Source of the DNA: Torpedo marmorata | Lineage: Eukaryota | Direction of reading: 5' to 3' | Assembly: GCA_977017645.1 (NCBI GenBank) | Contig: OZ360234.1 | Span: 79,794,001 to 79,858,000, forward strand | DNA: 64,000 nt | Shown: positions 2,868 to 63,580 of the stretch, in pieces | Position numbering within the stretch: the stretch's first letter is position 1 | How the letters are laid out: every line of letters starts with the position of its first letter | Notes under the pieces: model-generated | The model's input: only the letters and a program-made list of their open reading frames with translations | Told to the model about the DNA's origin: nothing | Databases searched by the model: none | Translations under genes and position numbers: made by a program

Positions 2868-3110
2868 GGTAAAGGTAAAGGTAAAGGTTCCATTATTGTC
2901 ATGTAATACTACATTTAGAATGTAACATACATGAAATTCTTTAATTTTTGTCTACCGTAAGGCAGACAGAGGGTCGCTATTTTGTCCAGCGCCCCTCACC
3001 GAAACCTACAGCACCTGGTGTTCCTTGGCGGTCTCCCCTCCAAGTACTGACCAGTCCTGTGCCTGCTTAGCTTCTGAGATCAGACAATCCCAGTTGTATT
3101 CATGCTATTG
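2868..3110 (-). mobile_element. 5S rRNA-derived SINE (SINE3 type) with (CCTTTA)n tail
   Basis: Reverse complement of 3002-3105 matches 5S rRNA (GTCTGATCTCAGAAGCTAAGCAGG...GTACTTGGAGGGGAGACCGCC...CCAGGTGCTGTAGGTTT). It continues into ~130 nt of non-5S tail ending ATGACAATAATGGAA(CCTTTA)3. Confidence 0.85.
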
Positions 3111-5395
3111 GTGGGTGCCACCATCCTCCCATGCCACTAACTGAGAACATGTAGGACCTTAGTCAATGTAATGCTCATTATAATTCCCCCAACCAGCAAC
3201 ATCATACACATTTACTCAGACACTAGCTTCTCAGTTGATAGAATGGACATTGCTGACCCCAATTTGGCTGATCTTCACCTGTCTACAACATGTAATGACT
3301 TTCCAATTGAGGTAAAGTAACATGGTAAATCTGAGTTCTATCTGTCAGCGAGGCAGACCACACGAGGGAATGCTTTCTGATAGAATGGATGGGGACTGGG
3401 TGTGGAGGAGTTGGCAGGGAGCAGATCTGCAGAATGAAATGGTGGGTGAGTGAGTCATCAGAATTCTCATACAAAAACACAATTGTTCATATATTATTTT
3501 GATATAAGAGTGATGATCCACGGCTGGAAATCTATGCAAGTCTGTTCCTCACAAACATTGTTCTCTGATTCAAGTTTGCTTACATTAAAAGGAAAACCAT
3601 TGATTAAAAGTGCGGATGCCTTTATTTTGGGTGAGCCTCCATTTTTGAAAATCAATGATAAAGAAAAAATGGACGATCTTTTGCCAAATTGTTTAGAATT
3701 GTAGGATTTCATTGATTAAAACAAAGCTGAATAAAAAACAGTAGAATCTGATCCTAAAGTAATCACTGGTGTGTTCCCCTGCTCTTAGAGCACAGATAGC
3801 TAAATGGGACCAGCTCTGTCAGCATGAACAGGTGGGCCGGAGGGCCAGTTTCCTTTGTTTGCCCTGTAAAGGCACACAAACAGCACCACCAGTCCAGCGC
3901 CCCTATCAAGACCAGAAAGATAAATAAAAGAGAATCCTATCAGACGCATCGAGAGCCCCCGTAACCTCTGTAGCCACACGGCCTCCTGTCCAGCCCAGTG
4001 GCGAACCCGAGCTCAAGGCATCCCACTCTCAGCCTTCGTTCTGTATTTTTCAGCACCATTCTCTGAACAAAAATCTACCAAGCTCAATTTAGAGATCTTC
4101 AATTGACTCCAGGCTCAAGAGTTTTATGCAGTTCTTCCTGGAATATGTGGTTGCAATCTAAAAAAAATCTTGGTGTTCAGTTGTGAATAAAAAATATTCT
4201 GTTAGGTTTGATCAAGGTGTGGAAATAATCCAAATTAATCCTTGTATTGAGTCACGTTATCAACCAGCCCTGAATCTGTGTTGATTTGCCGAACACCTCC
4301 GCTCTGTTTGTGAGTATAAACTTGAGCCAACCATTTCAACATCCCCAGCCATTCCTACATTGACATGTCTGTTCTCGGCTTCATCCATTGTAAAGGGATA
4401 TTTTCAACTGGAACAGGGCTTTACAATGTTAAATGTGAGTTTATTGTCACATACATAAGTACAATGTACAGATGCACCAAAATTCTTACTTGTAACTAAT
4501 TCATAACTAATCCTGAGTTTCACAACCAGGCAGTATAATATAGGCATACACTGACTACTTCCTTCAAGAAGCAATTGATGTAGGGAGGGGGTGGGGAATA
4601 CTGTTTTGTCTGATCTGTATTTATCTTTACAATCCCTTTGATACCGAAAGTTGAGAGTTTATTTTCCACGAATGCTCCCATAAAATTAGCTGGAGTGTAT
4701 TCTTGTGGAATAATGAAGGTCAAATCCCATTAATATCATTCAACTAACATCAAACATTATCAAAATGGAAGTATCTTTGTTCTGTGGTCTGATGATAATT
4801 TGAAAGGAATTTCCTGATGGGACCTTTCCTTGATTCTTAATGAATCCAGTACTCCATCACTATTTCAGCTAAACAAACCATGGGTACATCTGCATTTGGA
4901 ATACTGCATTCTATTATGCAAAGCAGCACGGACTCTGAGAAGGTACAAAGGAAGGGTGATGTAATGACACCTTGTCTCTGGGCACAGATGAGGCTCTGAG
5001 GCTTAGGGCTATTTAAACTGAAAAACATCAGTTTGGAAGGAATCTGAACAATGATCGTAATATGAAGAAAGACTTGGCTCCAATCCATTGAAGTGGTTTG
5101 TTTGAGATTCAAAGAAAACTTGGACAGTGAAGCATGTATCTGAATTCTTGAGTCAAAGGGGGTAGATGTCAACAAAGATTAATTTTTACAGAGAGAAATT
5201 ATTGCAGAATAGAAGTCTGAGCAAAGTGATGACTAGTGAGTCACATCAGTTCATCCCAAGTGGAATGGAAATGCATGAGAGTAAAATGTTTCATTGGCTG
5301 AAGTGTAAACATTTAGAATCTGGCAGCTTCATGGAGACATTGGTTGCATTATATAACTAGATGTTAAGGTAAGGAGTATGGAGATGGTCTAGAGG

Positions 5396-14390: not shown

Positions 14391-14534
14391 TATACGCATG
14401 TGGGCAGCAGAGTCAAAATGTTTCATGGTATATGTGTAAAACATTTGGTTATGCTCACGAGATTGGCTGGTGTGCACAGATCCTATAGGTTTCTTTGGAG
14501 TGAAACATTAAAGTTTGCAGGCGCTATGATTGTA

Positions 14535-14720
14535 TTAAAAGCAGAAAAATTCTGGAGGAACTCAGCAGATCATGTAGTGTCCACAGGAGATAAAGATATA
14601 TAACCAATGTTTCGGGCCTGAGCCCTTCTTCAAGATATGAAACGTTGGTTATATATCTTTACCTCCCATAGACACTGTGAGACCTGCTGAGTTCCTCCAG
14701 CATTTTTGTGTTTTTACTAT
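14535..14720. mobile_element. Penelope-like element inverted terminal repeats
   Basis: CTGGAGGAACTCAGCAG...GTTTCGGGCCTGAGCCCTTCTTCAAG, then the inverted partner GAAACGTTGG...CTGCTGAGTTCCTCCAG. Confidence 0.75.
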
Positions 14721-15482: not shown

Positions 15483-17559
15483 ACACTGAGCTTAGGTGAT
15501 AGCATAGCCATGATTAAATTGAATGGCAGGAACAGGGCTGAAGAGGCTTCTCGTATCTCCCACACATTTTCAGTTTGGGGTGCCTCACTGCTCCATAGAG
15601 ATGTGTAAACCTAGAAGATGAGAGAGCCAGCCATAGGATGGTGCACCAGAATAATATCAGTTATGAAACAGTTAATTTGTGACAGCAAGTTTGTTGAAGT
15701 TGGCTTGTGTTCCTTTGAATTTGGAAGATTGAAGGGTAATCTGATCAACGTATGTAAAATGATAAAAGCACTTGCCAAGGTAGATTAAGAGGAACTATTT
15801 CTTCTCTTGGGTAATTGAGAAGGAGGGAACGTAATCTTGAAATTGGAGCTGCATCACCCAAGAATGGCCAGGAGGCATTATTCCACACAAAAGGAAGTCA
15901 AATTCTGCAAGTTGCTGTTCCCAGAAGTCAGTGAACACAGGGGCACCATTGGGGTTTCCAGTACTGAGATGGAGTGATTATCGGGAGTTAAAGGTATCAA
16001 GGGACGTGGAAGCTCAAAAGCTGATCTAACAGAGTGGACATGAGGGCTGAACGGCCCTCTTGGTCCCGTGAACAAGGTCCCAAAGCTCATTCACTGTCTC
16101 TGTATATTGCAACAAAGTCTGCACCTTTCATGAACCTGAACAGAATACAGAAGGTCTAGAATCCATGAGCTGTTTCTCTGCTATTCATTCTCCAACATAA
16201 TTTCACTTTAGCATCTCATCTCAAAATTTAAAAAAAAAATACTTAGCAGACATAAGACTGGTAAAGTTTGCTACATGCAGTTTCCAAGTGTTGGTATGAA
16301 ATATAATTTTCTGACCAAAAACTCCCAGATGTTCATCGTTAATTAATTGAAATTGTTACACATTTCTCAACAGAAAAAGAAAATCAATTTTGAATGGACA
16401 TGATTTCTGTATCAATTTAGTCAGAGTTCAGCAGGACCAACTCAATGGGCCAGTTTCACTCACACTCTCATATGAATCTGAGGCTGGAGAGATGAGGGAA
16501 TGCATTCACTTTTATGTTGATTTTTTTATTCATGAATTGCAACCTTGAGTTCTCTCCTGCACTTCCCTATGCCCCCTTCTTCTTTCTATTCTTTCCAGTG
16601 AAGACCACCACTGTTTACATCTCCAAGGTCATCAGCGATAATGTTGATGACAACTCCATGCCATGTATTTTTAAGGTGATAAAATGTTTCAGAATGATCT
16701 TCACAAGATTATAATCAGAGAAAAAATCATTTCGATCCACACGAGGTGATATTGGGAGAAGGCAGACTTTTGCTTTAAAAAAGGATCAGACAGGGATGGA
16801 GAGGTTGAGGGAAATTATTCCGGAGATTAATGCCAAGACTACAATGGTTAGGTAAAGAAAGCCAGGTCGAACACAAACAGGTGATGCCGTTTGATTTGGA
16901 AATCGTATAACTGCAGCAATTAATAAAGAGGGAGTTGAGCAGGTAGATTTGTATGGGGGTAGGGGGAGTGTTTGAACTCAAAGATCAGGAAGAGGATCGA
17001 TCAAAATTTGCTGGGAAAATGTTTAAAAACAAAAATCTATTGTCTTGCTATAATTGTTCCGAATTGTAATAATCATAGATTAAAATAATTAAATACCTCG
17101 ATGGATGTATTTTTTCATCCAGTGACTGCACCTGAGAACTTGACGTAGGTCACAGTGCAGGCAACGATGAAGTCACCACGGCGAGACTCTCCACCGTGTT
17201 CCGTGTATAAATCCCAAATACCTCCCATTCTCATCCATGTATTCCTGTGAAGTTCAAACAGCCACACTTATAAAAACGCAGGCTCGAGCAAGAGCGGGAA
17301 AGATGCGTCCTTACTTGAGGCATTGAAATTTAACTTTAAAAAATGAAAACCGATCCTCAGTAATATCAGAACCCGGAGAATGTCCCCACGGCCCGCGGAA
17401 TTAAGACGAATAATTTGTGGTTACTGAGGGAGATAATGACAAGCTGTCCATAGAGAATTTCATCTGTCAAGCATGTGGACATATCGGGATCCGGTCTTTT
17501 GCGACAAGAGCGGGAACGAAATCCTTAAGTTTTCTTTCAGCAGGGAACATTATTAAACG

Positions 17560-17775
17560 TAAAAACACAATGCTAGAGAAACTCAGCAGGTCAAACATAG
17601 CCAACGTTTCGGGCTTGAGCCCTTTCATCAAGGCACACCTTGATGAAGGGCTCAAGCCCGACACGTCGGTTATGTATCTTTATCTTTGCTCTATAAAGTG
17701 CACCGTTTGACCTGCTGAGTTTCTCCAGCATTGTGTTTTTACTCCAACCACTTCTGCAAACTTTCGTGTTTTACT
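17560..17775. mobile_element. Penelope-like inverted termini with two hammerhead-like cores
   Basis: Near-perfect foldback ...CGTTTCGGGCTTGAGCCCTTTCATCAAGG-CACA-CCTTGATGAAGGGCTCAAGCCCGACACGTCGG... Confidence 0.8.
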
Positions 17776-21780: not shown

Positions 21781-23144
21781 TGAAATTGGATTGTTGGGTG
21801 CGGAAAGAAAGTTTCTCCCTGCATTAGACAGTGACCAGGAGGTAAACGGCCCTTATTATCCCGTCCGAATTTGTAAAGTTCAATTGTCCCATAAGCGACG
21901 TTATGAATGCACTGGAGGCTGTGGGGTTAACTCCACGCTGTGTTCTAGCTGTGAATGGTAGCAGGATGGAAGGAAAGTTTCAGAAGCGGCAATTGTGAAA
22001 TGTCTTTTTGGAAGTGTGTTGGATTTAAAATCCAACGCTGGTGGTCGCTTGCCTCTCCGTTGTTCGTTACGAGCGTGAAAAAAATACCCTTAACAATTTC
22101 CAATTTAATGCTTCGCTCTAATAAAGAGATTACACGAGGTCCATATTGTCAGACTGGAATATACTGTCTCTGCGAAGTATCCGATCTGGATGGTGCGATT
22201 TAATTATATAATCGCTGTCTGGATTCGATTGTCCACCGTTAATTGACGGACACTCCACAGAAGCCTTGATATAACTTTCTTTCCAATTAATCAATGAGAA
22301 TGTATTTTAGCCCACCATCTTCTCACTTCTCCCCGACTTCTGTACACGTCTGCAAGAACAAAATAAGACGCCACTAAATTTTATTTTACTTTAATTTTGA
22401 GACCAATCTATTCTCCCCTGTCTCCCTTCAATCAGTTTACATTAATTTTAAAATTCGTCATCGCACGTGGAAGGTTAATGAATAATTGTCGAGTTCTTAA
22501 CGATAAATTCGGATTTTAAACTAGATTGAGAATGGGGCTGATTCGGATGTTTTGTCATATTGAAATCGCCTAGCAGACTCTGCTGAATTGAGCGCGATAG
22601 TATAGTCATATCCATAAGTACAGTGTATAGATGCACTGAAATTCCACTTGCTGCAGCCACACAGGTAAGTAACATACCCAACTACACTAGTGGACATTAA
22701 ATTGCCACAACATGTCCAGACAGAAAAGAGACAACAAATATAAAAGGACAGATAGATAAATATTGCAGTTGGAAGATAGGTTGACAGAGGGGGAGGGAGG
22801 GAGGGGGGCGATCACTTCGATTTAGCAGAGTGAATGGGCCAGAGGTTGTCCCCTAGGAATTCAGGCGCCAAAGGTCGTTCGAAATCCGTCAGGGTTTGTC
22901 ACCTGCAGAAACCTTGGACGGATCAGCAGTAACAAGACACGAGCAGTTCCCCTAACTGTTGCTGATCAGTAACAGGGATCTGTGGTCGTAACACAATGCG
23001 ACCTCCGTGCCTCCTTCAGAGGGACAAGGCACCTCTTCTCATGTGGGGTATTGTATGTCCTGCATTCAGGGGATTTAAAACACTCACAGTACTTGCACCA
23101 ATGCGCGTGGTCACTGTTTAAAACGGGATTACCAAAATAAAATG

Positions 23145-23230
23145 TCCATGGACGCTGCGTGACCTGCTGAGTTTCTCCAGCACTTTAGTGCACTGCACTA
23201 GACCCCAGCGTCTTCAGCCTCCCTGTTACT
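23145..23230 (+). mobile_element. Penelope terminal remnant
   Basis: GACGCTGCGTGACCTGCTGAGTTTCTCCAGCACTTTAGTGCACTGCA. Confidence 0.7.
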
Positions 23231-25184
23231 TTAAAATAAAACTTACGGCAAGATGTATCAACGACTAAAGTGAGGTTATATTTACAGAAGGTAAAAACTT
23301 GAGTTTCTGATCTGAATTATTACTAATATCAAGCGTGAAGGTGCTTTCATTTGAAAAGCACCATTATAAAATTAGAGGGAAACTGTATAAAGTTAGAGGA
23401 AAGGGGTAAACAGCAGAGTAAAAATATACATGTATTTCACTGACCTTATTTTCCAATTTCTATATCTGAATATCAGTTCACGGGCATTTTCCGTAACCTG
23501 AACCTCTGACTAAAAGTGATCGGTCCTTTGCTAAATGGTAACTTTTCAACGATTGTATTGCCAAACAACCCCACCATCCGCCTGTACTTGGTTAAGTGAG
23601 GACGTTCAAAGGTGGAGAATCGTGTTTGTAACAAGTCCTTTCTGTGTGAAATTTATCGTGAGAAGCGGAAAGAATAGTTGCAGTGCAGAGCGATGGAGTT
23701 CGGTCTTGAAGCTGTCAGAAATCGGTGATGTGAGATTGATGGGTCCATTTTTGTATTTTAATAAACATGCACGATAATTCGTTTTATCTTGTTGTGAATG
23801 TGATGATGCGTGTTATGGAGTGAGTGTAATGCCGGGGGAAAGCTAGCTTTAAGATGCTGGAAGAAATACGAGTTTTCTGACTCTCTCCAACGTTGCATCA
23901 GGTTATTAGCGGTCTATTTACAGTGTCAACGAAACGAAAGCGCCTCTGGTGTAAGTGCATTTGAAGATTTCCCTTCCATTCCGATACCCGGTTATGTTTT
24001 TGATATCTCCCCCCTCTCCCCAAAAACAGTGGCTCGAGGGTTTGGATACTTTAAATTTAGACATCGAGCTCCGGAGATTTACGGTACCTCCCGTGTAGTA
24101 TCAAGTTTTCACTGAAACGGTGACTGGGGAAGCCATCGGTGTCGCCAGGCGGCGACAGAGCTTTGCACAGGCACGGTCCCGGGGCATCCGGTTCAAGGGA
24201 ACGAGAGCGACCCCTTTTCTAACCTGTAAGACTCCGAATTAAACCCAAGTGGAGAAAATCAGCGCTGCCATTTAAAAAAAATCTGATGCGTAATGGGTTA
24301 CAAAATTAATCTGTTCCCTCATTACTTCGGAAAAAAGTTCACAAATGTTTTAGTTTTATTCATTAACTACCCAAACTGCACAAAACAGATCGATGCGCAT
24401 TATTAAATATTTATCCCACTTAGAAAATAGCTAGAGGGAGACGGTGCCTGTGACCAACAGCCTTACAGGACGGGAGCTGGGAAGTGGGTTAATCTTCAAT
24501 GTCGACTAGAACGGGTGTGATGGACCGGTCGGCGAAGTATTTCTGCCGGGGCTGACTGGCGTTCTTTTGATTCTGCAGAACCGATGAATGGGAATTGTCC
24601 TGGCAGCTGGTAATTCTGACACAGGTACAGGTACAATTCTTCTCCTATCCCGCCCGATAAAGTAAGCATTCCTTTTATAACTTCCTTGTGCTTATCTGTT
24701 TTCTTGTAGAAGTGAGCAATCTCCAAAGACCGTAAACAATAAGACTGCGTGCGAATTGAACGGCTCTCTTCGAGAATGCAATGCGCAATCATTAACACTT
24801 TTTTTACAAACATTTTTAAACTATTTTACAATGATTAACGACATGCTTGCATATTTCACCAATCAAATATCCATTGGACTTTAGGAACACGTATTTAAAA
24901 TTGCTTTCATTCATATTTGTAAAGTTGCATGAAGGTTTTCAACTATTTTTGAATAAACTGTGCACTAATAAATGTATTGCTCGAGAATCATTAGGTGGCG
25001 ATCGTGTTGTGAAGTTTCGTTTGCTGGATTTTACATTGCTCAGGTTTTTTGGAGGAGGATCGGCCACCTCGACGTTGCCCGGGGCAGGACCATGATCTGC
25101 AGTCAGACTTTGCCCGAAGCTGGGTTTTCACTCGGATGGACTCCCTCCAGAAGTGACGTGACGATGCGGTTACCATGACAGCCA

Positions 25185-25295
25185 AACAATCTCCAATAGA
25201 GAAACAAACCGCAGAGAGTTTTGATTGGCACGTGGTGGAGCTGTCAATCATACCTCTTCCTCCTCCTCCTCCTCCCCTCTCCCCCCTCCCAAAAA
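25185..25295. promoter_or_regulatory. Upstream promoter-like module (CCAAT, E-box, PBX-PREP/MEIS decamer, C-rich tract)
   Basis: CCAAT (~25193), TGATTGG (25222), CACGTG (25229), CTGTCAATCA = reverse TGATTGACAG (25241-25250), (CCT)n/C-tract (25254-25290). Confidence 0.55.
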
Positions 25296-25824
25296 AGCGC
25301 CCAGCTCCAAAACACAAAACGGAACACCTGCATCTGGAGGTTTGCTCCGATTTCCGTGAGTATGTGGATGTGATGCGAGGGAGCGGAGGGGTGGCGGCTT
25401 ATGTCGGGAGCAGGCAGTGGGAAGATTGAAACTGGAGGCCCTTGCAGAACGCAGGCGTGTAATTAAAGATAATTTAAATCGGAAAAAAAAACATATTGCT
25501 AATTTCAGAACATCGAACTTCCTCAGTAGCAGTTGGCAGCGGACGGGATTTGAAATAAAAACCATTTCAATTCCATTTACATATCTTAGAAACTCGTCCT
25601 GAAATCTGGACGCACTTTAATTATTTTTTTTGGCAAACTGTTTGAGATCCCGGCCTGGGATCTCCTTAACACCGAGGTCTCTTGCTTTAATGCAGCGCGT
25701 AATTATTCCAATGGTGATTCGCGTTTATTCCGGGCTGGGGATTAAAATCGCACCTATATTTTTTATAGCGTGAAAATGGTGCCTTCATGCTAACGAACAA
25801 TCCATCAGGACCTGTCCTGAAGTG

Positions 25825-25895
25825 AGCTGCGATTGGCTGCCAGCTACTTATTTATAGGCCGTCAATCTGTATCACATGGATAGATATCTATTGAA
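25825..25895 (+). promoter_or_regulatory. Probable Sox3 core promoter
   Basis: Inverted CCAAT (GATTGG 25831-25836), TATTTATA (25849-25856) and CCGTCAATC, about 280 bp upstream of the ATG. Transcription start site (TSS) is inferred. Confidence 0.55.
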
Positions 25896-25932
25896 TCCTA
25901 ACGGCAGGGCAAGTTTGGCAGCGGAGTTCGCA

Positions 25933-26017
25933 TGCAGTATACAAAAGTGCTGTGGAAACTCAGCAAGTCACACAACACCAATAGCAGTCAACGTTTCGGG
26001 CCTAAGCCCTTCGGCAG
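25933..26017 (-). mobile_element. Penelope terminal remnant in the probable Sox3 5' leader
   Basis: TGCAGTATACAAAAGTGCTGTGGAAACTCAGCAAGTCAC matches the reverse complement of ~23158-23197; CAACGTTTCGGGCCTAAGCCCTTC matches ~17602-17626 and ~52268-52289. Confidence 0.75.
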
Positions 26018-26132
26018 TTTGCGTTATCGCTGTGGGTTTTTTATTTGGGGGGAGTGTACTGTGCTGACTTGCCTCGGGGACTGTTGTTTACTTCCTGTCG
26101 GTGTCTTTTTCGCTCCTAGCTCGTTTGGCTGA

Positions 26133-27053
26133 ATGTATAGTATGATGGAAACCGAGCTGAAGCCGGCTGTTCCCCAATCCAACGCGGGGACAGTCGGCGG
26201 CTCCGCTCCCGGAGCCACGGGCAAGAACGGCAACAACAACCCGGACCGGGTGAAGAGACCCATGAACGCTTTCATGGTGTGGTCTCGGGGCCAACGTCGG
26301 AAGATGGCTCAGGAAAACCCCAAAATGCACAACTCCGAGATCAGCAAGAGGCTCGGCGCGGACTGGAAACTTCTGTCCGACTCGGAGAAGAGGCCGTTCA
26401 TTGACGAGGCGAAACGGCTCCGAGCTCTCCACATGAAGGAACACCCGGATTACAAATACCGACCCAGGCGCAAAACCAAAACGCTCATGAAGAAAGACAA
26501 GTACTCTCTTCCCAGCGGTATCCTCAGCCCGGGGTCAGTGCCGGTCAACAGTGGCGTGGGGGTTAGCCAGCGAATGGAGAGCTACCCCCACATGAACGGT
26601 TGGGCGAACGGGACCTATCCCCTTATCCAGGACCAGTTGGCTTATTCGCAACACCCGGGTATCAATAGTCCGCAGATCCAGCAAATGCATCGCTACGAGA
26701 TGGCCAGTCTCCAGTACAGTCCAATGATGTCCACGGCCCAGAGTTACATGAACGCGGCCACCACCTACAGCATGTCTCCCGTGTACGGGCAACAAAGTAC
26801 CCCGGGCATGGCTCTGGGATCCATGAGCTCAATGGTGAAGACGGAGCCCACCACGCCTCCGCCGCTCACGTCCCACTCTCGGGGCGCGTGTCTGGGCGAC
26901 CTGCGGGATATGATAAGCATGTATCTCCCTCCTGGAGGAGAAGGGGACCCCTCTTCCCAGAACAGCAGACTTCACAGTGTCCACCAACACTATCAGAGCT
27001 CAGCGATACCGGGGACAGGGGTGAGTGGGACAGTGCCTCTAACCCATATCTAA
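26133..27053 (+). CDS. sox3: SoxB1 HMG-box transcription factor Sox3 (intronless, 306 aa)
   Basis: HMG box [61 protein letters not shown], group-B motif KKDKYSLP, C-terminal [18 protein letters not shown] and [27 protein letters not shown] and VPLTHI together favour Sox3 over Sox1/Sox2. Confidence 0.93.
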
Positions 27054-27788
27054 CAAATTAACCACCAGAACTCATCCCAATTTCGACAAACTTTTAGCAT
27101 TCGAGCAAAAGAAAGCAAATTATTTGATCACGCTCGCTCTTCGGACTGAATTTGTTATGCGTGCGAGCGAGTGATAGCTGGAGATTATCTCCATGACATA
27201 TAACGTTTTTAAAAAATTGGTTTCTAAATGTTGAAATGTCTCCTCTTTTCTCGCCAGTTGGGACAATCATCCATTCTGACCAACGAGACTCCCTTTTAGA
27301 TGCCAAGTTTTATTTGAAAAGGAAGCCTTTCTGAGACTTTCAATGACTTCAGACGTGGACTGAAACTTCTCGAGGAAACTTAAAACTTTTTTTTTGAACT
27401 GTCTAATTTGTGTACTTGTAAATAACTGTTCAACAATGTGACACCTGGCTTGATTCAAAATCACGCCGAAAAAAATATACCTTGTAGGGTTTGTGTTTTA
27501 ACCTCTTCTCCCTCTCCTTTTGTTTTTTAGCTTTTAAAAAGACTGCGGGTCACAACGCAAGTTTTAATTTATAGTATGTTTTTTTTGTTTACACGTTTTG
27601 ATGCTTGTGAACATTTTAAACCTTTATAACTGAACCCTCCTACCCCCACCGAGTCTGGATTTGTGAATTTATGGGTGGAGTGTCCTTCCATATCAGTTGA
27701 GTGATTATATTGAACAAGCAGATATTCTAGTTTACTAATAAGGCTTCTTGTGTTTTAAACTCCGGCTCCTGTTCCTGAAATGAGGATG

Positions 27789-27840
27789 AATAAATTTTTA
27801 CAAAAATCACACGACCCGGATGTTTTGCGTTGCCTGTTGA
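27789..27840 (+). terminator. Probable Sox3 polyadenylation signal
   Basis: AATAAA at 27789-27794, CA dinucleotides ~15-20 nt later, then GT-rich TGTTTTGCGTTGCCTGTTG. The UTR also has a Pumilio-type TGTAAATA at 27417-27424. Confidence 0.6.
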
Positions 27841-28594
27841 AAGTCGGGCTACCGGTGAGTCTTTTCAAGAATTAAATGCTTATTAATCTAGATGGATCTT
27901 TTAAACACATTAAATGTATTCTAGTGACAACTTAAAATTAGTCGAGGGCTGGATTTTTATTCTGAATTGTTCCTGTTTCTTTAGGCACAGTAATGTAGGC
28001 CTCTAAAACAGCGAAGGCGTGTTTGCGAAATACCTTATTTTGAGAAGTGAGGTGAACACCAACTGATCTGTTTGCATTAGATCCTCACTTCCGGGAGCCT
28101 TAACAATCTCCAAATCACTCTCAAAGTTCCACCCCTTGCAATATTTAATAAATAAAACATTCGCACTAAAAACTGGATAATTTTGTGTGAAGGCGTGTTG
28201 TCCCTGAGCCAAGCCAATCCATAACAGAGGCTATGAAACGAAAGGCATTTGAACGATCCGGGAGACCGAGTTTCCTCAACGCCCACACCCTCCAAAGCCA
28301 AGCAAGCTGAGACAGAGAACCCGAGTGTTTCAAGAGTCGGGCGTTTCTTGAATCGACTGGTGAACTTTTTGGATGAATGTTTTAAGTGTCGTTGGCTCTG
28401 TTCCCCAGAGAGACAGCAGGTGATTTTAAGTAGGGAGCGTTTTATGAAGATAATACCTTCCAAATTTTTGGGTAACTTCTCGATAAACCCTGGACAACCC
28501 AAAATGTTAGCGATTCCCCCTCCTTCACGATTACTGCAATATTATTTTCCCAGGTGTAACATTATTCGCGAAACAGAAACAACAAAAAAATATG

Positions 28595-28720
28595 TAAAAT
28601 CGGCTCCAGGAACTCAGCGGGGGGAAGGGAATGGCCAGTTTCGGGTCGAGCCCCTTCATCCTCCCCACCTCCCAACCAGCTGAGTTTGCACCAAAAACCA
28701 GCATCTACAATCTCTGGTGT
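28595..28720. mobile_element. Penelope terminal remnant
   Basis: GGAACTCAGCGG...GTTTCGGGTCGAGCCCCTTCATC. Confidence 0.6.
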
Positions 28721-30527
28721 TTGTGAAACTGGGTGTTGTATTAAACCATTGGGGAGAGAGAAAGAGAGTCAGATAATTCATTTGAAATGTAGCGCCTGAA
28801 AGGAAACTTTCCGTCAGTAGAAATTACGCTGCCATTCGTGTCTGTAGAGTTAGAGAATACACTTCACGAAAGTCCCATCCATTACAAGTGGGTGACGAGT
28901 GTGTTTTCCAGTAAGGTGCGAAAATAACAGGCCGCTGTACACTGGTTTCAATCCTTCACCGTTTGTGACCGATTTAAAATTGAAGACAAACTCCTACTAT
29001 CATTTATGCTAATTTGGAGATTTGTTCCAGATCGCTGTTAAATGAGCTAACGGCTCCTGTCACCCATCCCCCCAACCCCCAAAGCATTTTTAAAGACACT
29101 TTTTCCACTTTATTTCAATGCAGGTTCCACGCTGAGAAAGCAATCAGTGTCGGTAGTGTAGTTTTCTTTTCACCTGCGTCGGTGTCATTCCCCTTGGCGG
29201 AGCGCTCCATTCGGTTAACAAACGAGACTTTTTTTTCTTCAGGGTGGGTTGGGAATCTGTCCTTTCCCACTGCTTGGTTTTATTTTGGCGGGGGAGGCAA
29301 CTTTCACAGCTCAGCTCGGATGTGAGAAGTTGCTTGGACAAGGACAAGCGTGGGCAAACTCGCCCGTTTAACTGCGACTGAAGGGCGAACTAAATTTGAG
29401 CCAATATTCTGCGCTTAACTCCATGGAGTTGGTTTGGCCTTGTCTCGCTCAAAGACAACTCTGCACACTTAAGAAAAATATTACCCCCTTAACTGTACAT
29501 GTACTGGGGGTAAGGCAAGCCGGATGGGCCGTGTAGGTTAGTTGATTTTTTTTTTCAATTTTAACTCCTGTTTTTAAAATGGTAGAATAGGTACAGGGAG
29601 AGCGAAGTAACAATCGTCTGAAGTTGAGTGGTCTTAAATACTGTTTTAAATGCATTCCTCGCCGCGGAGTTGGTTTTCCAGTAAGTTATATATTTTATCC
29701 AGTGCAGCTCTGAGAGTAGTATTTTCTAAATTATAGCGAAGCCTTTGGAAAGTTGCGTGGTAAATTGGATCTAAGGCAAATCTGGAAGATTCGCTTGGCC
29801 TGAATATTTTGCGGTTTGTGTAATACCGCCAACAATTCTCATTTCAACTGGGCACGAAAAGATTCGTTTGGGAGTTAGTCAGAGGAAAATATTATTTTTT
29901 TCTGATTTTATTCAGCTTCTCTGTCGTTTAAATATCGTCACCACTGACGAAGGTTGTTGGAACTTCTGAAGTTCATAAATTTCGACCTTTTTTCATTAAA
30001 TGATTTAAATTATTACTTATGTACGTTGCTGGCACACCAGACATTTTCTTAGACCGTTGCCAATTCATTCAGTCTCTTCTCGGCTTCTTGTGACTTCAGG
30101 AGTTAAAAACATCTAATCTAACCATTGAATTTTAATTTGACATTACACGCTTAAAATCATGGGAAACTATCAGCGACCGGTGCAGTTTATTTAAAAAAAA
30201 AATGATTGTATCGATCACATAGAGGTGCTTTTTAAAAATAGAACCAATGGTTAGGACTAAAATTTTAATATGGAGTGGACTTTTATTTTTGAACAATGGG
30301 ACGCGTGCAGTTAAAAGTTGGAGCTGACAGTGTGGCCCCAGCGGGAACTGAGATTGCAAACACCATTTAGGTTTGGAATAGATTCTCTTCCTGTTTGGGG
30401 TTGTTAATTTGCGCGTTTAATTCTGTTTCAAATTTTGAATACAGTATTGGTATGGGCTCAACGACAGTGAATCACACCTTTCTATCTTCGACACGTAATA
30501 TCACCCCCCTCCAGTTACTTTGGTCTC

Positions 30528-30660
30528 GGTCGAGGGTCCTGCCTGACCTGAAACGTTAACTGACTTTTCTACCCACGGACGCTGCCTGACCCGCTGAGTC
30601 CCTCCAGCTTCTCTTTGTTTGCTCAGAATTCCAGCACCTGCACTTTTTTTTCTATTTCTC
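30528..30660 (+). mobile_element. Penelope terminal remnant
   Basis: GACCTGAAACGTTAAC...GACGCTGCCTGACCCGCTGAGTCCCTCCAGC. Confidence 0.65.
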
Positions 30661-33600
30661 TATTGAATCTCATCGCCCGTTATTTAATCGAATGAAAACC
30701 GTGACCTGGTTTTTATCTCTCTGCCCGAACTGCGTTGCACATTTTTCGTTTAATTTGCTTTGGACTTTCTCACACTTACCAATCATCAATACTAACTGCA
30801 AATCTACTGTCTGGTGTGATTTTGGAAGCAGCTTCTCAACCCCTGGCCCACGGAAAGGATCCTGTGAAATTCTTTCCAACATTAAATTGTTTTCGTCTTG
30901 GAAACGGGGCTCGCCTTATTGTAGGGACCTTGTTGTAGCGAACGGTTACCGAACCCAAGCCTGAATGTAATTTCCCAACCTATTTCTTTGGACTATGCAA
31001 ATGTGCTCACTTGGGAAAATCAATTTATCGCCAGTGAAGCTGACCCCGGGATGATGGCACTGAGACTGTTCAGGCGACTTAACCCATCCTGAAACAGAGG
31101 GTTTTGGGAAGTTTAATAAACTTCCAAAGTTCTAGAATTTTTGAAACCCTCCTTCATTGCGCGATCACAATGGCAGGGATCCACTTTAGATCTAAACACG
31201 TACGGGGTTAGAAGGTTAATTGGTCACATGGGTGTAACTGGGCCGCATGGGCCAGAAGGGACTGTTACGGTGCTGTATCTCCAAATTAAAATCATTAAGG
31301 TCGCCAAAAGGCGCCACTGAAAAGAACGGTACATGGTTTCCGGTCTCCCTCCAGGTAAGACCTTGTTTGCACGGCGAAATGGGCAGTGAAACCTGCGGGC
31401 TATGTTTCCACCTGTGCTTTGGTTGACTTTAACTTGGAGGACCCCAACGGTCACTTGTTAGCTGGTTCGGGCCAGGGTGGAGCAGGAACATTAACGATGG
31501 GGAATGAAAACGGATGCCGCAGTTACCCAGCTCCCTCTCTGCAAGGGCAACCTCTGTCTCCCCGAATGAGAATTTGTATTTTTAAATTAAAAAAAAATCC
31601 TCACACTTAAAGCAAGGGATTCAGCGATCCTTAAACCATCTGCAGGGGGGAGGCCCGGCTGTCGTTCATGCGAATTTCCGGCAGGAGTTAATCCGTAACG
31701 ATTTTTTTTCCAAGCGGCTTTGAGAGGAGAATGTTCTCCGCGCTCTCCCCACTTTACCCTCTCGCCACCACGGGACACCCCTACACGTTCCCCAGCCTTA
31801 AATTCGTAACCTTGGACATTTCTGAATTGGTAAATTTGAACGAAATGCAATAACATTCCGGCCGAGGCCGGCGCTCATTGCAAACTGGGACATTTAACGA
31901 AAGTTTTTTTTTTATCTCAAGAACTTCCAAAGTTCGGAGCTCGCGTCTTCTCGCTGAGTTCTTTCTTCGCCGCAGTCTGCGATCCTGTTTCTGCTCCTGA
32001 AGTGTGCACCGAAAACTCCACTTCGCTTCCAAAAATTGGCACAATTAATCAATTCCGTTATTTAAAATTTTTTTGTAAAGCTCACAGCCGTTAATGTTAG
32101 TCATGTACACAACAGTTGTCCGATCAACCATTTCCCACTGGTGAAATCTGAAAATAAATCGATGGCGGCAAGTGCGCGAGGAGACGCATTTGTCCAGCTT
32201 GCGCCAGACCCTGTGATGGAACCCCCAATTTGGGAAACGAGCGAGAGTGACATGTGTCGGTGTCTCTGGGGCTTGGCTGCACAGATTTATCCACCACCGG
32301 TCCCTGATCCCTGATGTTAGGCTTTGTGCGTGTTTGAGTAAAAAGTAACATTGTACGCGGGCGATCTGGTGCTGATGGGAATGTTCGGTCAATGTTACCC
32401 GCAACTAAAGCAGTGAGTGGTCCTGGCTTATTAGCGAGATGCGGATGACTGTAACCCTATCTTAAATTAACCCCAACCCGATTTAACTCCGTTTAGTTAA
32501 AGTGACATTTTCTCTTCAGTTTGAAAGCCAGGGATCTCTGCAAGAAGTATTCTATTTTAATTTACGATTTAAAAGAAATCCCTATAATTCCAATATTTCA
32601 GTAAACGTGCTTTAATACTGTTTTTAGCTGGATGTAAACTTTGTTTTTGGTAATGTTATTAGACGCGGGAGGCAGAAGCAAATTGAACTAACCTATAGGT
32701 CGCACAGCAGTCGCTGAAGAGAGTGCAGAGTGGGTTCCAGATATTTGAAGGTTTTGGAGACTTGGACAGAGGGTATTCAAACGAATTTTGTGCCCAGAAA
32801 TGTGCCGGGGCGCTGCACCTCCTGACAACAGGACTAAAGCCTGTCTGTTCCTGGAAGACTCTTGCTCCAATTATTTTGTTTCCTTGCATGCAGGGAATTT
32901 CTGTCAAGGCAATGGAGTTTCTTGGACCGACGGACGGATCGGGCAATCCCGTGGGGGTTGACTACTCCGTAAAATAACAAAAACGGACCAGGGCAGGGAG
33001 GGACCCGGGTCTATTCCAATCAATTTGGATCCAGAAAGCGAGGGGGAATAAAAGTGCAGAGTGGATTCAAACTCAAAGAAAGTGGAAATTATCAAAGGAT
33101 TCTCCTCGTCTCAAATTGTTTCCGCGTGAATACTGGGGTGTACGTTTATCTCGGCTGTTATTTCAAAGTGAATCCCAGCGCATGTTTTGTAAAGTTCTGT
33201 TATTCATATGTTCGGATGAAGCAAACAGCCCGCAGGTGGCAGCGGTCTGTGAACGCAGGCTCCGGAGTGCAGGCTTGCGATGTGCTCCAGGAGATGTTAT
33301 GTTAGTCCTCTGCTGCAAAATTAAAATTAAATGCAAGCCACTCGTGAGCAGCATGGTCTGGTCGGACAAGTCGGCTGGTAATTGATGAAATGAATGCAAA
33401 GCTGTCTCCTGTTTGAATGGACAATCGTCCTGAATACTTTCTTCCTGAATTATTTAATATTCCAACTGTTGGAATGTTATGAAAGATAGAGGCAATTTAC
33501 ACACATTCATAGTTTCTCCTCTTAAATTAAAATACAAAAAAAGTGTATACATTGAAGGATTTCTGATTATAAATGATCAGGATAAAGTACAAATGAAGCG

Positions 33601-40856: not shown

Positions 40857-43800
40857 TTGAAAGATTTAAATTTAATAGATATTTGGAGGAAACTGAATCC
40901 TAGAGAAAAAGATTATTCTTTTTATTCTTTTAGACATGATTCATATTCTAGGATAGATTTATTTTTATTATCTTCACAGGTTCAAAATAGAATAACGCAA
41001 GCATCTTATAAAGCGAGAATAATTTCTGATCATTCACCTTTATTAATATCTTGTATAATTCCGGAAAAAGAAAAAACTGTATATAGTTGGAGATTTAATT
41101 CTTCTTTATTAAAAAGAAAAGATTTCTGTGATTATATGAGAAGGGAAATTCAGGAATTTTTACAAATAAATTCTAATTCTACTGATAATAAATTTATTAT
41201 TTGGGAAGCTTTAAAAGCTTATTTAAGAGGTCAAATAATAAGTTATTCAGCAAAAATTAAGAAAGATTATCTTAGGGAAGTAGAAAATTTAGAGAAGGAG
41301 ATTGAGTGTTTAGAAAAAGATTTACAAAAAAACAGATCAGTTCAAAAAAGGAATAATTTAATTGGGAAGAAATTACATTATAATCTATTACAAACATATA
41401 AAATGGAAAAATTAATTGAAAGAACTAAACAAAGATACTATGAGTTAGGGGAAAGAGCTCATAAAGTTTTGGCATGGCAATTAAAAAAATATCAAACTTC
41501 TAGAACTATAAATGCCATAAGGAAAAAGAATTCTAGAGAAATAACTTATAAACCTCGAGAAATAAATGATTCTTTTAAAGATTATTATTTGAATTTATAT
41601 AAATCTCAGATTGATCAAGATGATTCTAAAATTACTAGATTTTTATCTAAAATTATATTACCTAAATTAAATACCCAAAGTAGAGAATCTTTAGATTTAC
41701 CTTTCTCAATGAGGGAAGTTAATGAAGTTCTTACTTCTTTAAAGAGTGGTAAATCTCCAGGTGAAGATGGATTTCCATCAGAATTTTACAAAGAGTTTAA
41801 AGATTTATTAATACCTCCGTATATGGATGTATTGAATCAAGTTACGGAAACCCGCTCATTACCAGATACTTTCTTAAATGCAATAATTACAGTTATACCA
41901 AAAAAAGATAGAGATGTATTGAAAACTGAATCATATAGACCTATTTCATTGTTAAATGTAGATTATAAGATAATGGCAACAATTTTAGCAAATAGAATGG
42001 CTAATTATTTACCAGATTTAATTCATGTAGATGAAGCTGGTTTTATTAAAAATAGATATTCAAAAGAAAATATAGCTAGATTAATTAGTTTAATTAATCT
42101 ACATAAAAAGAAGGAAGATTTACCATCAGTTTTAACTTTAGACGCCGAAAAGGCTTTTGATAGATTAGAGTGGAATTTTTTATTTAAGCTATTGGAGAAA
42201 TTTGGTTTTGGAAGTACATTTATTAATTGGATTAAAACTATATATAAAGAACCATCTGCTAAAGTAGTTACAAATGGACAAATTTCTTCAAAATTTCCTT
42301 TGACTCGATCTACTAGACAAGGATGTCCTTTGTCACCAGCGTTATTTATTTTGGCGATAGAACCTTTGGCAGAATTAGTTAGAAAAGATCCTAAAATAGT
42401 TGGTATTAAAGTTGGAATGGAAGAACATAAAATTAGTTTATTTGCAGATGATGTATTGATATATATGACAAAATCTACGACATCCTTAGTACAATTGTCT
42501 GTGTTATTGAGAGAATATGGGGAAATATCTGGATATAAAATTAATTCTGATAAAAGTGAAATTATGGCATTATCACAAGGGGATTATAGTAGATGTAAAG
42601 AAATTACACAATTTAAATGGGCAAAGGAAGGAATTAAATATTTGGGAATAAGGGTTGACACAAAATTGGCTAATTTATACAAATTAAATTATTTACCATT
42701 ATTTGTGAAAATAAAGAAAGATTTAGAAAATTGGAAAGATTTACCTATAACTTTAATGGGAAGAGTAAATTGTATTAAAATGAATGTTTTTCCAAGAATT
42801 CAATATCTTTTTCAATCAATTCCTTATGAAATTCCTCAAAATTTTAAAAAAGATTTAAATTCAATTATTAGAAATTTTTTATGGAAAGGAAAGTTAGCAA
42901 GAGTAGGTATGGAAAAACTAACTTGGAATTATGAAATGGGTGGTTTACAACTTCCTAATTTCCAAAATTATTATAAAGCAGCTCAATTAAAATTTGTTAA
43001 TGAATTTTTTGATTTAACTAAATCTTCTGCTTGGATTAAAATAGAATTAAATAATATAGGAGAAGATTCCAAAGAAGAAGTTATTTATAAATGGGATTCT
43101 AAATTAATATCAACAAGAAAGAAAAATTCTCCTATTCTTAAACATTTGTTAGAAATATGGAATAAGACGAATAAGGAATTAGGAGGAAAAGGATTGATTT
43201 ATTCAAGGATGCCTTTATATCAAAATGGACTTATTCCATTTACTATTAAAAATCAATTATTTAAAATTTGGTTTCAAAAAGGAATTAAGAAAATTAATGA
43301 TTGTTTTGAAGATGGGAAATTTATTACTTTTCAAAGAATGAAAGATAAATTTAATATATTAGATAATACACTTTTTGCTTATTATCAAATTAGAGCTTTT
43401 CTGACTGAGAAATTAGGTTATGCTTTGATTTTACCAAGACAGAATGAATTAGAATTATTAGTTACTAAAGGAGATGTCAATAAATTTATTTCTCAAATGT
43501 ATAAATTGTTTCAGAGGAAAATTCCTAAAGTAGGAATTCATAAATCAAGATTAAAATGGGAATTAGATTTGAATGTAATAATAGATGAAAATCATTGGAA
43601 AGAATTATGTAAATTAAGTATGACGAAGATTATTAATGTTAGATATAGATTAGTACAATACAATTTTTTTCATCAATTATATTTAACACCTAAAAAACTA
43701 AAGAAATTTAATCCGACATTATCAGGTTTATGTTTTCGATGTAATAAAGAGGAAGGTTCTTTTGTACATTCTACATGGTTTTGTCCAAAAGTTTATGATT

Positions 43801-44135
43801 TTTGGTTGATAGTTAAAATTTTTTTAGATAAAGTATTTAAGATTATATTTCCAATGGATCCTATGATATTTTTGTTCGGAGATATTAGAAAATTTAGTAT
43901 TAAGATGAAATTAAACATGTATCAAATAGAATTTTTGCGAATTGCTTTAGCTGTTTCAAAGAAATGTATTGCTATTACTTGGAAATCTGATTTAGATTTA
44001 GGATTAGAAAGATGGCATGCAGAACTTCGTTCGTGTATACCACTTGAAAAAATTACTTATAATTTACGTAATAAATATAATTTTTTCTTAAAAATTTGGA
44101 GCCCATATATGAACGTTGTTGGTTTAAAGATTTGA
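40857..44135 (+). CDS. L1 ORF2 (partial APE endonuclease, reverse transcriptase, CCHC knuckle), N-terminally truncated
   Basis: SRIDLFL/SDHSPL endonuclease end, KSPGEDG, YRPISLLNVDYKI, DAEKAFD, RQGCPLSP, LFADD, IKYLGI, CFRC...HSTWFC. The TTG 'start' spans the insertion junction and is not the native start. Confidence 0.92.
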   Translation: MKDLNLIDIWRKLNPREKDYSFYSFRHDSYSRIDLFLLSSQVQNRITQASYKARIISDHSPLLISCIIPEKEKTVYSWRFNSSLLKRKDFCDYMRREIQEFLQINSNSTDNKFIIWEALKAYLRGQIISYSAKIKKDYLREVENLEKEIECLEKDLQKNRSVQKRNNLIGKKLHYNLLQTYKMEKLIERTKQRYYELGERAHKVLAWQLKKYQTSRTINAIRKKNSREITYKPREINDSFKDYYLNLYKSQIDQDDSKITRFLSKIILPKLNTQSRESLDLPFSMREVNEVLTSLKSGKSPGEDGFPSEFYKEFKDLLIPPYMDVLNQVTETRSLPDTFLNAIITVIPKKDRDVLKTESYRPISLLNVDYKIMATILANRMANYLPDLIHVDEAGFIKNRYSKENIARLISLINLHKKKEDLPSVLTLDAEKAFDRLEWNFLFKLLEKFGFGSTFINWIKTIYKEPSAKVVTNGQISSKFPLTRSTRQGCPLSPALFILAIEPLAELVRKDPKIVGIKVGMEEHKISLFADDVLIYMTKSTTSLVQLSVLLREYGEISGYKINSDKSEIMALSQGDYSRCKEITQFKWAKEGIKYLGIRVDTKLANLYKLNYLPLFVKIKKDLENWKDLPITLMGRVNCIKMNVFPRIQYLFQSIPYEIPQNFKKDLNSIIRNFLWKGKLARVGMEKLTWNYEMGGLQLPNFQNYYKAAQLKFVNEFFDLTKSSAWIKIELNNIGEDSKEEVIYKWDSKLISTRKKNSPILKHLLEIWNKTNKELGGKGLIYSRMPLYQNGLIPFTIKNQLFKIWFQKGIKKINDCFEDGKFITFQRMKDKFNILDNTLFAYYQIRAFLTEKLGYALILPRQNELELLVTKGDVNKFISQMYKLFQRKIPKVGIHKSRLKWELDLNVIIDENHWKELCKLSMTKIINVRYRLVQYNFFHQLYLTPKKLKKFNPTLSGLCFRCNKEEGSFVHSTWFCPKVYDFWLIVKIFLDKVFKIIFPMDPMIFLFGDIRKFSIKMKLNMYQIEFLRIALAVSKKCIAITWKSDLDLGLERWHAELRSCIPLEKITYNLRNKYNFFLKIWSPYMNVVGLKI

Positions 44136-51879: not shown

Positions 51880-53090
51880 GGAGTTACGTCCTCCTGCACC
51901 CACGACTGCACAGCGAGATACAATTCCAACTCCTCTTCAAATTCACCCACAACACCACAGTAGTAGGCTGGGTATCAAATAACATCAAGGTGGAATACAG
52001 GAAAGAGATTGGTGCCAAGATGATAACTTCTCTCAATGTCAATAAGGTGAAGGAGATGATCATTGACTTCAGGAGAAGGGGCAGAGTCCACACTCCTGTC
52101 CACATCAATGGCTCCGAAGTCAAAAGAGTAGATAGCTTCAAGTTCTTAGGAATAAATATTTCCAAAAAACATGAAAGTCTGCAGACCCTGAGGTTGAAGT
52201 AAAAACACAATGCTGGAGAAACTCAGCAAGTCAAACAGTGTCCTTTAAAGATAAAGATACATAACCGGCGTTTCGGGCCTGAGCCCTTCATCAAGGTGTG
52301 GAAAAATGTCAGCAGGCACCGGAATTTATAAAAAAAAAAGACCTGACCTGAGCCAAGCACATTGGCATGACGGTCCACAAAATGCACCAACACCTCTCCT
52401 TGCTCAGAAGACTAAGGAAGTTTGGCATCCCCATTGTTTCCTCAACAACTTCTACAGGTGCAGACTTTCTGGATGCATCGCAGCGTGGGGCGGGAGCTGC
52501 TTGATAAGGTCTTGATTACAAAGGGAATCAAGGGTTATGGGGAGAAGGCAGGAGAATGGAGTTAAAAGATAGTAAATCAGCCATAATGAAATGACAGTGT
52601 GGACTCGATGGTCCAAATAACTAAATTCCGCTCCTGGGTCTTGTGGTTTGCTCAATATCATGAGAAGCTGCAGAAGGTGGTGAATGCAGCCCAGGGCATC
52701 ACACAAACTTCCCTCCCCTCCATGGACTCCATCTACATCACCCACTGCCTAGGAAAGGTGGCCAACACACTGAAGGGCCCATCACTCCCTGGACACACTC
52801 TCTTCTCCCTCCTCCCATCGGGGAGAAGGCTCTAGAGTGTGAAATGGTGTACCAACAGGCTTAAAGTCAGTTTCTTCCCCGCAGCTATCAGGCTCCTGAA
52901 TGAGCCCCACAACAGTGCTCTCACACTGCCCTTGCTGGTGTTGATTGATCGTCCTTTACATTGTAATCCTGCACTCTGTAAATTGTGCACTTTACACGGC
53001 AATGTGAATGTTAGAGATAACCTGTTAGACTGCTTGCACAAGAACCCTTCTCACTGTACTCAAGATAACATGACAAACTTGAATTCAGAC
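51880..53090 (+). mobile_element. Degenerate Rex1-like LINE interrupted by Penelope (~52175-52320) and CR1 (~52500-52645) pieces
   Basis: LNVNKVKEMIIDFRR...VDSFKFLGINI; NRLKVSFFPAAIRLLN. Confidence 0.75.
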
Positions 53091-63397: not shown

Positions 63398-63580
63398 CGA
63401 ACAATCTGCTGGAGGAACTCAGCAGGTCAAGCAACATCAGCAGAAGAAAAAGAATGGACAGATTTCTGACCCAAAACATCGACCATTCTTTTCCTCTCAC
63501 TGATGCTGCTCGACCTGCTGAGTTCCTCCAGCAGATTGTTTGTTGCTCCAGATTCCAGCGTCTGCAGTTTTCTCTGCGTT
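63398..63580. mobile_element. Penelope inverted termini (foldback)
   Basis: AACAATCTGCTGGAGGAACTCAGCAGGTC ... GACCTGCTGAGTTCCTCCAGCAGATTGTT perfect inverted arms. Confidence 0.8.

What the first reader, a model, noticed from the sequence alone, without database searches (positions are those of the whole stretch)
25933..26017. Penelope/hammerhead-derived segment in the probable Sox3 5' leader
Seen: between the CCAAT/TATA module (25831-25856) and the ATG (26133) lies an ~85-nt, internally shortened Penelope terminus matching copies at 23150, 17600 and 52270. Its antisense strand reads CTGCCGA-A-GGG CTTAGG CCC-GAAAC-GTT, a hammerhead-like core with altered positions. A transposon relic this close to the start of a constrained developmental gene is unusual. 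Inference: it may be exapted, for example as a translational control hairpin or a processing site for an antisense RNA; it may also be neutral.
Basis: partly seen in the sequence, partly recalled or inferred. Interest (0 to 1): 0.7.

Follow-up and report, generated by a model that had tools for sequence, protein, structure and literature searches.

The report
Old transposon scrap in Sox3 leader
An 80-base tail of a very common jumping gene sits just before the start codon of the Sox3 gene, likely inside its untranslated leader, and is shared with related genomes; its ribozyme motif lacks a required stem, so it is most likely a tolerated relic, although a small deletion beside it created an upstream start codon that might dampen Sox3 translation in this lineage.

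Summary
The segment is real: window 25933-26012 is the reverse-strand 3' tail of a Penelope-like retrotransposon (about one tail per 9 kb), 121-200 bases upstream of the Sox3 ATG. Related sequences in one public run carry it too (4 of 4 contigs reaching the left junction), so the insertion is old. The motif has 0 of 6 stem I pairs, A6C and U17: not a competent ribozyme. No unusual folding (z +0.65, +0.79) and no sign of constraint (4 changes in 26 bases versus 7 in 147 in the promoter core; small sample). The position is uncommon (0 of 75 other developmental genes have a tail within 250 bases of the ATG). A 10-base deletion made a weak upstream ATG (66 codons, ending right at the Sox3 ATG), absent from 4 of 4 relatives. 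The transcription start is inferred, not mapped. Verdict: tolerated relic. The scan noted this family elsewhere in this genome, not at Sox3.

The parts
25832..25836 (-). Reverse CCAAT box of the Sox3 core promoter
   Evidence: the same motif precedes the Sox1-, Sox2- and Sox19-like paralogs; no difference listed here in the related contigs
25849..25856 (+). AT-rich, TATA-like box (non-canonical)
   Evidence: aligned with AT-rich boxes of the Sox1 and Sox2 paralogs; one change in each of two related contigs
25861..25878 (+). Paralog-conserved core module (PBX/TGIF-like site, then E-box; labels from the flounder sox3 paper and recall)
   Evidence: Local score of 25826-25900 against Sox2 and Sox1 upstream regions reached by 0 of 500 shuffles each; not significant for 6 other Sox genes
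25878..25892 (+). Inferred transcription start zone (not mapped)
   Evidence: About 30-40 bases after the AT-rich box; flounder sox3 5' UTR is 208 nt by RACE (PMC4661933); inference
25931..25933 (+). Three-base remnant of the left target-site copy; 10 bases lost in this lineage
   Evidence: 3 of 4 related contigs hold the 10 extra bases, equal to window 26014-26023 (tables 4 and 7)
25933..26012 (-). 3' tail of a Penelope-like element: second half of the minimal hammerhead plus about 55 bases, 5'-truncated at the core box, 11-base internal deletion
   Evidence: 8 differences in 79 bases from the subfamily majority (range of 31 copies 4-15%)
25990..26017 (-). Hammerhead-like string: box 26017-26011, stem II 26009-25998, GAAA core and U17 to 25990; no stem I
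26012..26024 (+). Right copy of a 13-base target-site duplication; its first 6 bases match the element's core box at 5 of 6 (junction microhomology)
   Evidence: family units carry 11-16-base duplications
25932..26132 (+). Lineage-specific upstream ORF: weak-context ATG at the deletion junction, 66 codons, stop codon directly before the Sox3 ATG
   Evidence: ATG absent from 4 of 4 related contigs; frame open in 462 of 5000 shuffles
26133..27053 (+). Sox3 coding sequence, one open frame, 306 aa

Best explanation
The segment is the truncated tail of a Penelope-like retrotransposon that sits antisense just upstream of the Sox3 coding sequence, is shared with related genomes, and is most likely a tolerated, non-functional relic inside the 5' leader. 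Inferred history: the element's endonuclease cut the leader of an ancestor; reverse transcription began at the inner of the family's two tail ends, copied about 90 bases and stopped inside the hammerhead core, where 5 of 6 bases matched the target; repair left a 13-base duplication. The copy therefore never had the 5' arm of stem I here and could not self-cleave from the start. It then decayed: an 11-base internal deletion, about 10% substitutions, and loss of most of the left duplicate twice independently. It was probably tolerated because it lies downstream of the conserved core promoter, lengthens the leader by only about 80 bases, adds no stable structure and at insertion added no ATG. Shown: identity, boundaries, duplication, presence in relatives, missing stem I. 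Inferred: leader location, insertion mechanism, neutrality.
For: Family identity: 24 GIY-YIG-end copies were read out and run into the same tail (25 loci fetched); L007 has the endonuclease end about 250 bases before a tail of this subfamily. Truncation at or near the hammerhead is common: 11 of 30 scored random copies. Duplications of 11-16 bases flank 7 of 13 two-ended units (score 10 or more) against 7 of 156 mismatched pairs. Left duplicate seen in 3 of 4 related contigs; the fourth has a different deletion. Stem I 0 of 6 pairs, while 20 of 31 subfamily copies keep the two proximal pairs and 9 of 31 pass all tests. Folding z +0.65 (segment, sense), -1.23 (antisense), +0.79 (leader). One related contig differs at 4 of 26 element bases against 7 of 147 in the core promoter and 21 of about 228 upstream (counted by hand; Fisher p 0.06 and 0.30). 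Distance to the subfamily majority 8 of 79, rank 22 of 32.
Against: Such positions are depleted of this element: 0 of 75 developmental genes have a tail within 250 bases of the first in-frame ATG (2.8 expected, P 0.06) and 1 of 75 within 500 (4.8 expected; one more borderline), so most such insertions seem to be purged and this one was kept in all 4 versions seen. A second related contig is identical over its first 20 element bases (record 6). The constraint test rests on 26 bases of one contig and is not significant. The 31 comparison copies were picked by likeness to this copy, which biases the distance. The same A6C box occurs in 2 of 31 genuine copies (L011, L087), so an element origin of those bases is not impossible. 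The right junction was not seen in relatives. Single-ended truncated copies rarely showed a duplication (1 of 37).
Confidence: 0.75

Rival explanations
1. The relic has a recent, accidental effect on translation. A CpG change plus the 10-base deletion made an ATG at 25932; scanning ribosomes that use it would translate 66 codons and stop on the codon directly before the Sox3 ATG, lowering or retiming Sox3 protein output in this lineage only.
For: The ORF exists and is the only ATG between the inferred start zone and 26133. It is in frame with Sox3 and ends at a stop-then-ATG junction that the Sox1 and Sox2 paralogs also have. Transposon-made upstream ORFs can lower protein without lowering mRNA (PMC9881132, abstract).
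Against: Weak context (C at -3 and at +4). Absent from 4 of 4 related contigs, so not the reason the insertion was kept. An open frame of this length arises in 462 of 5000 shuffles. No RNA or ribosome data.
Confidence: 0.12
2. The tail was exapted early as a cis element (factor-binding site, spacer or RNA element) that tunes Sox3 in this clade.
For: Retained in 4 of 4 related versions whose flanks differ from the window by 3-9%; position is depleted of such elements in other developmental genes.
Against: Changes at 4 of 26 bases in the most informative contig; two independent deletions at its left edge; no folding signal. Retention of 80 bases needs no selection if deletions are rare (inference).
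Confidence: 0.08
3. The antisense strand is a working or conditional hammerhead that processes an antisense Sox3 RNA.
For: Stem II, the GAAA core and 5 of 6 box positions are present. Natural A6C hammerheads keep low activity in Mg and good activity in Mn (PMC7151607, part 1 of 4; PMC3088659, passages).
Against: No stem I in any register; three stems are required (PMC7151607). Even intact minimal hammerheads of these elements showed no cleavage as monomers and low cleavage as dimers (PMC4209133). No tandem partner in the leader. No antisense RNA was shown.
Confidence: 0.02
4. The main start site lies downstream of the segment, so the relic is promoter-proximal DNA and not part of the mRNA.
For: No RNA end was observed. 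An ETS-like site (label recalled) lies at about 26090-26097.
Against: The only paralog-conserved promoter module ends at about 25895; flounder sox3 has a 208-nt leader, close to the 176 bases from the E-box to the ATG once the insertion is subtracted.
Confidence: 0.05

Closest known systems
Endonuclease-positive Penelope-like elements: pLTR and tail, solo or truncated copies (PMC3846280, passages; PMC11167929, parts 1-2 of 4)
   Same: RT plus C-terminal GIY-YIG frame followed by a pLTR with a hammerhead motif; two alternative 3' ends; short target duplication; 5' junction by microhomology as described for Adineta Pen2.
   Different: Only about 80 bases of the tail; single-ended; lies beside the start of a developmental gene. 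Clade (Poseidon or Neptune) not tested here.
Minimal type I hammerheads of metazoan Penelope pLTRs (Cervera and De la Pena 2014, PMC4209133, parts 1-2 of 4)
   Same: Unpaired base before stem II, G-C first pair of stem II, GAAA core, palindromic residue of helix III with no loop.
   Different: No stem I, A6C, U17, no tandem partner; the first box is largely host target DNA.
Transposon-derived upstream ORFs, e.g. maize BTA in ZmSWEET4c (PMC9881132, abstract only)
   Same: An insertion near a start codon gives rise to an upstream ORF that may lower protein output.
   Different: Here the ATG came from a later deletion at the junction, is in weak context, is limited to one lineage among those seen, and no effect is shown.

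Membership tests
Penelope-like element (EN+) tail fragment | Homology to the pLTR that follows an RT plus C-terminal GIY-YIG frame | tested here: met
   Pfam GIY-YIG on L019 E 3e-4, 21.4 bits, just under the 22.6 cut-off; no Pfam RT hit, RT motifs recognised from recall
Penelope-like element (EN+) tail fragment | Minimal hammerhead in the family's pLTR | tested here: met
   10 of 45 random copies and 9 of 31 subfamily copies pass box, stem II, GAAA, UH and two proximal stem I pairs
Penelope-like element (EN+) tail fragment | Target-site duplication at the insertion | tested here: met
   13 bases; right copy in the window, left copy in 3 of 4 related contigs; family norm 11-16
Active minimal type I hammerhead | Core box C3 U4 G5 A6 N G8 A9 | tested here: not met
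   A6 is C; this alone lowers but need not abolish activity
Active minimal type I hammerhead | Stem II with G10.1-C11.1, G12 A13 A14, A15.1-U16.1, H17 | tested here: met
   position 17 is U
Active minimal type I hammerhead | Stem I closing the core | tested here: not met
   0 of 6 pairs; 0 in four registers
Active minimal type I hammerhead | Second copy nearby on the same strand for the dimer | tested here: not met
   Next same-strand copy is about 4.2 kb away (21731-21645) with a decayed core
Active minimal type I hammerhead | Self-cleavage of a transcript | not testable with these tools
   Needs an in vitro assay and proof of antisense transcription
Exapted transposon-derived regulatory element | Lies in a regulatory region or leader | tested here: inconclusive
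   Between a paralog-conserved core promoter and the ATG; no RNA end seen
Exapted transposon-derived regulatory element | Shared by related taxa at the same site | tested here: met
   4 of 4 contigs of run X5 that reach the left junction; right junction not seen
Exapted transposon-derived regulatory element | Purifying selection on the element | tested here: inconclusive
   4 of 26 changes versus 7 of 147 and 21 of about 228; direction against constraint, not significant
Exapted transposon-derived regulatory element | Measured effect on host gene expression | not testable with these tools
   Needs reporter or ribosome data
Sox3 (SoxB1) | One-frame HMG box plus SOXp domain, distinct from Sox1 and Sox2 of the same genome | tested here: met
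   no tree built; a POU3F-type gene lies on the same contig

The most novel reading that the evidence does not exclude
A Penelope tail fixed in the Sox3 leader of a fish clade became, through a later 10-base deletion, the start of a 66-codon upstream ORF that ends on the conserved stop-then-ATG junction of Sox3, giving one lineage a new, transposon-born brake on Sox3 translation that can be compared with sister taxa that carry the same insertion without the ATG.
Probability: 0.12. Interest if true: 0.6.

Novelty: new member of a known kind. Interest (0 to 1): 0.27.

Why it matters
As a neutral relic it is a clean clade marker in a locus that is otherwise poor in repeats, and a warning that a 'variant ribozyme core' at a truncation junction can be host target DNA. 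If the upstream ORF is used, the locus offers a natural series (insertion without ATG in relatives, with ATG here) to test how a transposon scrap becomes a translational control on a neural and gonadal regulator.

Tried and rejected
Rfam scan of the window gave no hammerhead hit and nothing at 25933-26017; Rfam models do not cover this minimal form well, so this is no evidence. Exact look-up of the Sox3 protein found nothing. Mapping the start site failed: no RNA holder listed as RNA, and the guessed-RNA or unlabelled runs X1, X2, X3, X6, X7, X8 gave no contig on the unique parts of the leader (filters may remove them), so nothing is concluded about expression. No run covered 26050-26240. The hammerhead tally was one base out of register and is replaced; the script stopped before the subfamily tally. 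A duplication search on single truncated tails was near control level (1 of 37) because many belong to two-ended units; one search tested whole units (15 found, 13 scored; one lay at a locus edge, one shared a left end). No paper placing the human SOX3 or SOX2 start site relative to the CCAAT box was found; that human SOX2 starts at the homologous spot is recalled only. No look-alike of the locus in other scanned genomes. Rejected: chance similarity; assembly artefact or recent private insertion; stable regulatory hairpin.

Full report
1. Observation. The segment is present as described. Window 25933-26012 matches other window copies at 23156-23197, 17578-17624 and 52211-52289 and 39 other places in the own genome, G000, 6.2 Gb (40 of 629 candidates scored). 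The unique flanks hit only the window's own locus. A tail profile built without this copy scores it at E 6e-21 and finds nothing in a reversed control. Against the majority of its 31 closest fetched copies it has 8 differences in 79 bases and an 11-base deletion. The downstream frame (26133-27053) is a SoxB1 protein. The genome has five other SoxB genes, which I read from recalled features as Sox2, Sox1, Sox21, Sox14 and a Sox19-like gene, so Sox3 is the best label; no tree was built.

2. The element. A GIY-YIG-like C-terminal peptide seen beside these tails had 215,048 first-look candidates in the genome. Of 25 loci fetched, 24 were read out; after the stop codon they run through a pyrimidine-rich stretch into a hammerhead region and the same tail. 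One locus holds 436 open codons with RT-like motifs (recognised from recall; no Pfam RT hit) and a GIY-YIG match just under the curated cut-off. This is the layout of endonuclease-positive Penelope-like elements (PMC4209133, parts 1-2 of 4 read; PMC11167929, parts 1-2 of 4 read). In 400 kb taken at round-number positions there were 45 tails, one per 8.9 kb, or about 700,000 if extrapolated. Many copies end at one of two points about 40 bases apart, like the optional tail described in PMC11167929; the Sox3 copy ends at the inner one. Truncation at or near the hammerhead is common: 11 of 30 scored random copies.

3. Relatives. One run search gave 9 runs of 4 coded organisms. Only run X5 (about 55% read) held contigs on the unique promoter, in several versions 91-97% alike, probably several related taxa; I cannot say which. 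Six contigs lay on 25760-25956; 4 reach the left junction and all 4 continue into the element. Three carry 10 extra bases just left of it that equal window 26014-26023; with the adjoining bases this gives a 13-base direct repeat, 26012-26024, on both sides of the insert. The fourth has a different deletion in the left copy. Duplications of this size are normal for the family: 7 of 13 two-ended units score 10 or more against 7 of 156 mismatched pairs, a lead taken from earlier notes and checked here. Short duplications and microhomology junctions are described for Penelope elements (PMC3846280, passages). So the insertion is old and shared, and the element stops at about 26011. The right junction was not seen in relatives.

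4. The hammerhead. They match the element's own box at 5 of 6, which is the likely reason the copy ended there (inference). Against this, 2 of 31 genuine copies show the same A6C box. Either way the motif fails: stem I has 0 of 6 pairs and none in four registers, while 20 of 31 subfamily copies keep the two proximal pairs and 9 of 31 pass every test. A6C alone would not be fatal: natural A6C hammerheads cleave weakly in Mg and well in Mn (PMC7151607, part 1 of 4; PMC3088659, passages). But all three stems are needed, and even intact minimal forms did not cleave as monomers (PMC4209133). There is no tandem partner; the next same-strand copy is 4.2 kb away and decayed.

5. Leader or not. The module reverse CCAAT, AT-rich box, then a conserved block to about 25895 is shared with the Sox2 and Sox1 paralogs (0 of 500 shuffles reach either score; 6 other Sox genes not significant) and changes little in relatives. 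Fish sox3 promoters share a conserved block with NF-Y, TGIF/PBX and USF sites, and flounder sox3 has a 208-nt leader by RACE (PMC4661933, passages and section 2.1.3; its figure and supplement were not seen). PMC4163894 (passages) confirms NF-Y and PBX1 as human SOX3 regulators but gave no start position. A start near 25878-25892 is therefore likely, which puts the segment about 45-55 bases into a 250-base leader; without the insertion the E-box-to-ATG distance would be 176. No RNA end was observed.

6. Function. The sense strand keeps only a 4-bp hairpin; z-scores are +0.65 (segment), -1.23 (antisense) and +0.79 (leader). One related contig shows 26 element bases with 4 differences, against 7 of 147 in the core promoter and 21 of about 228 upstream (counted by hand; Fisher p 0.06 and 0.30). 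Another is identical over 20 bases. This is a small sample that leans against constraint. Other repeats lie within 500 bases in about 11 of the 75. Depletion shows that most such insertions are lost, not that this survivor works.

7. The deletion in this lineage joins bases into an ATG at 25932. It opens 66 codons in frame with Sox3 and ends at the TGA directly before the ATG at 26133. It is the only ATG after the inferred start zone, its context is weak, an open frame of that length occurs in 462 of 5000 shuffles, and 4 of 4 relatives lack it. The stop-then-ATG junction is older: the Sox1 and Sox2 paralogs have it too. It could dampen Sox3 translation, as transposon-made upstream ORFs do in maize (PMC9881132, abstract), but nothing here shows it is used.

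8. Novelty and verdict. A search for Sox3 with Penelope gave 11 papers, 9 listed, none on this topic by title or abstract start; Penelope with elasmobranch gave 4 listings, not read. The scan has many notes on this family in this genome but none naming Sox3. The locus seems undescribed, but it is an ordinary truncated insertion of a known kind. Best explanation: old tolerated relic with a ribozyme dead on arrival (0.75). Interest 0.27; the upstream-ORF reading (0.12) would deserve about 0.6.

Noticed in passing
window 26130-26135; L039 and L040 at their start codons: Sox3, Sox2 and Sox1 of this genome all have a TGA directly before the start ATG. This blocks any in-frame N-terminal extension; human SOX3 is recalled to have a long one. 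Possibly an old SoxB1 feature.
   Followed up: partly
window 25826-25895; L039, L040: The core promoter (reverse CCAAT, AT-rich box, conserved block) is still alignable among the three SoxB1 paralogs.
   Followed up: partly
window 14499-14717, 17559-17775, 63402-63546: Two-ended, mirror-image Penelope tail units; the first two carry 12- and 14-base flanking duplications. Rfam's microRNA hits at 63406-63534 and 17600-17670 are these hairpins.
   Followed up: partly
L014-L037 tails; random loci L093, L102, L108, L117, L121: The most abundant, young-looking subfamily has U at hammerhead position 3 (U3 with G8) and a different stem I from the subfamily at Sox3.
   Followed up: no
window 41136-44135: Intact-looking 999-codon frame with reverse-transcriptase-like motifs of a LINE (L1-like by recall), 14 kb downstream of Sox3.
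   Followed up: no
window 3003-3116 (-): 5S rRNA-like sequence at the Rfam gathering score (38.8 bits), probably a pseudogene or SINE head.
   Followed up: no
window 22001-31000: CpG observed/expected stays at 0.75-0.96 over 9 kb around Sox3 against 0.50 for the window, and 23200-30540 holds no other repeat match in the self-comparison.
   Followed up: no
window 25338-25485: A low-depth contig of guessed-RNA run X2 lies about 400 bases upstream of the inferred start; may be DNA carry-over or upstream transcription.
   Followed up: no
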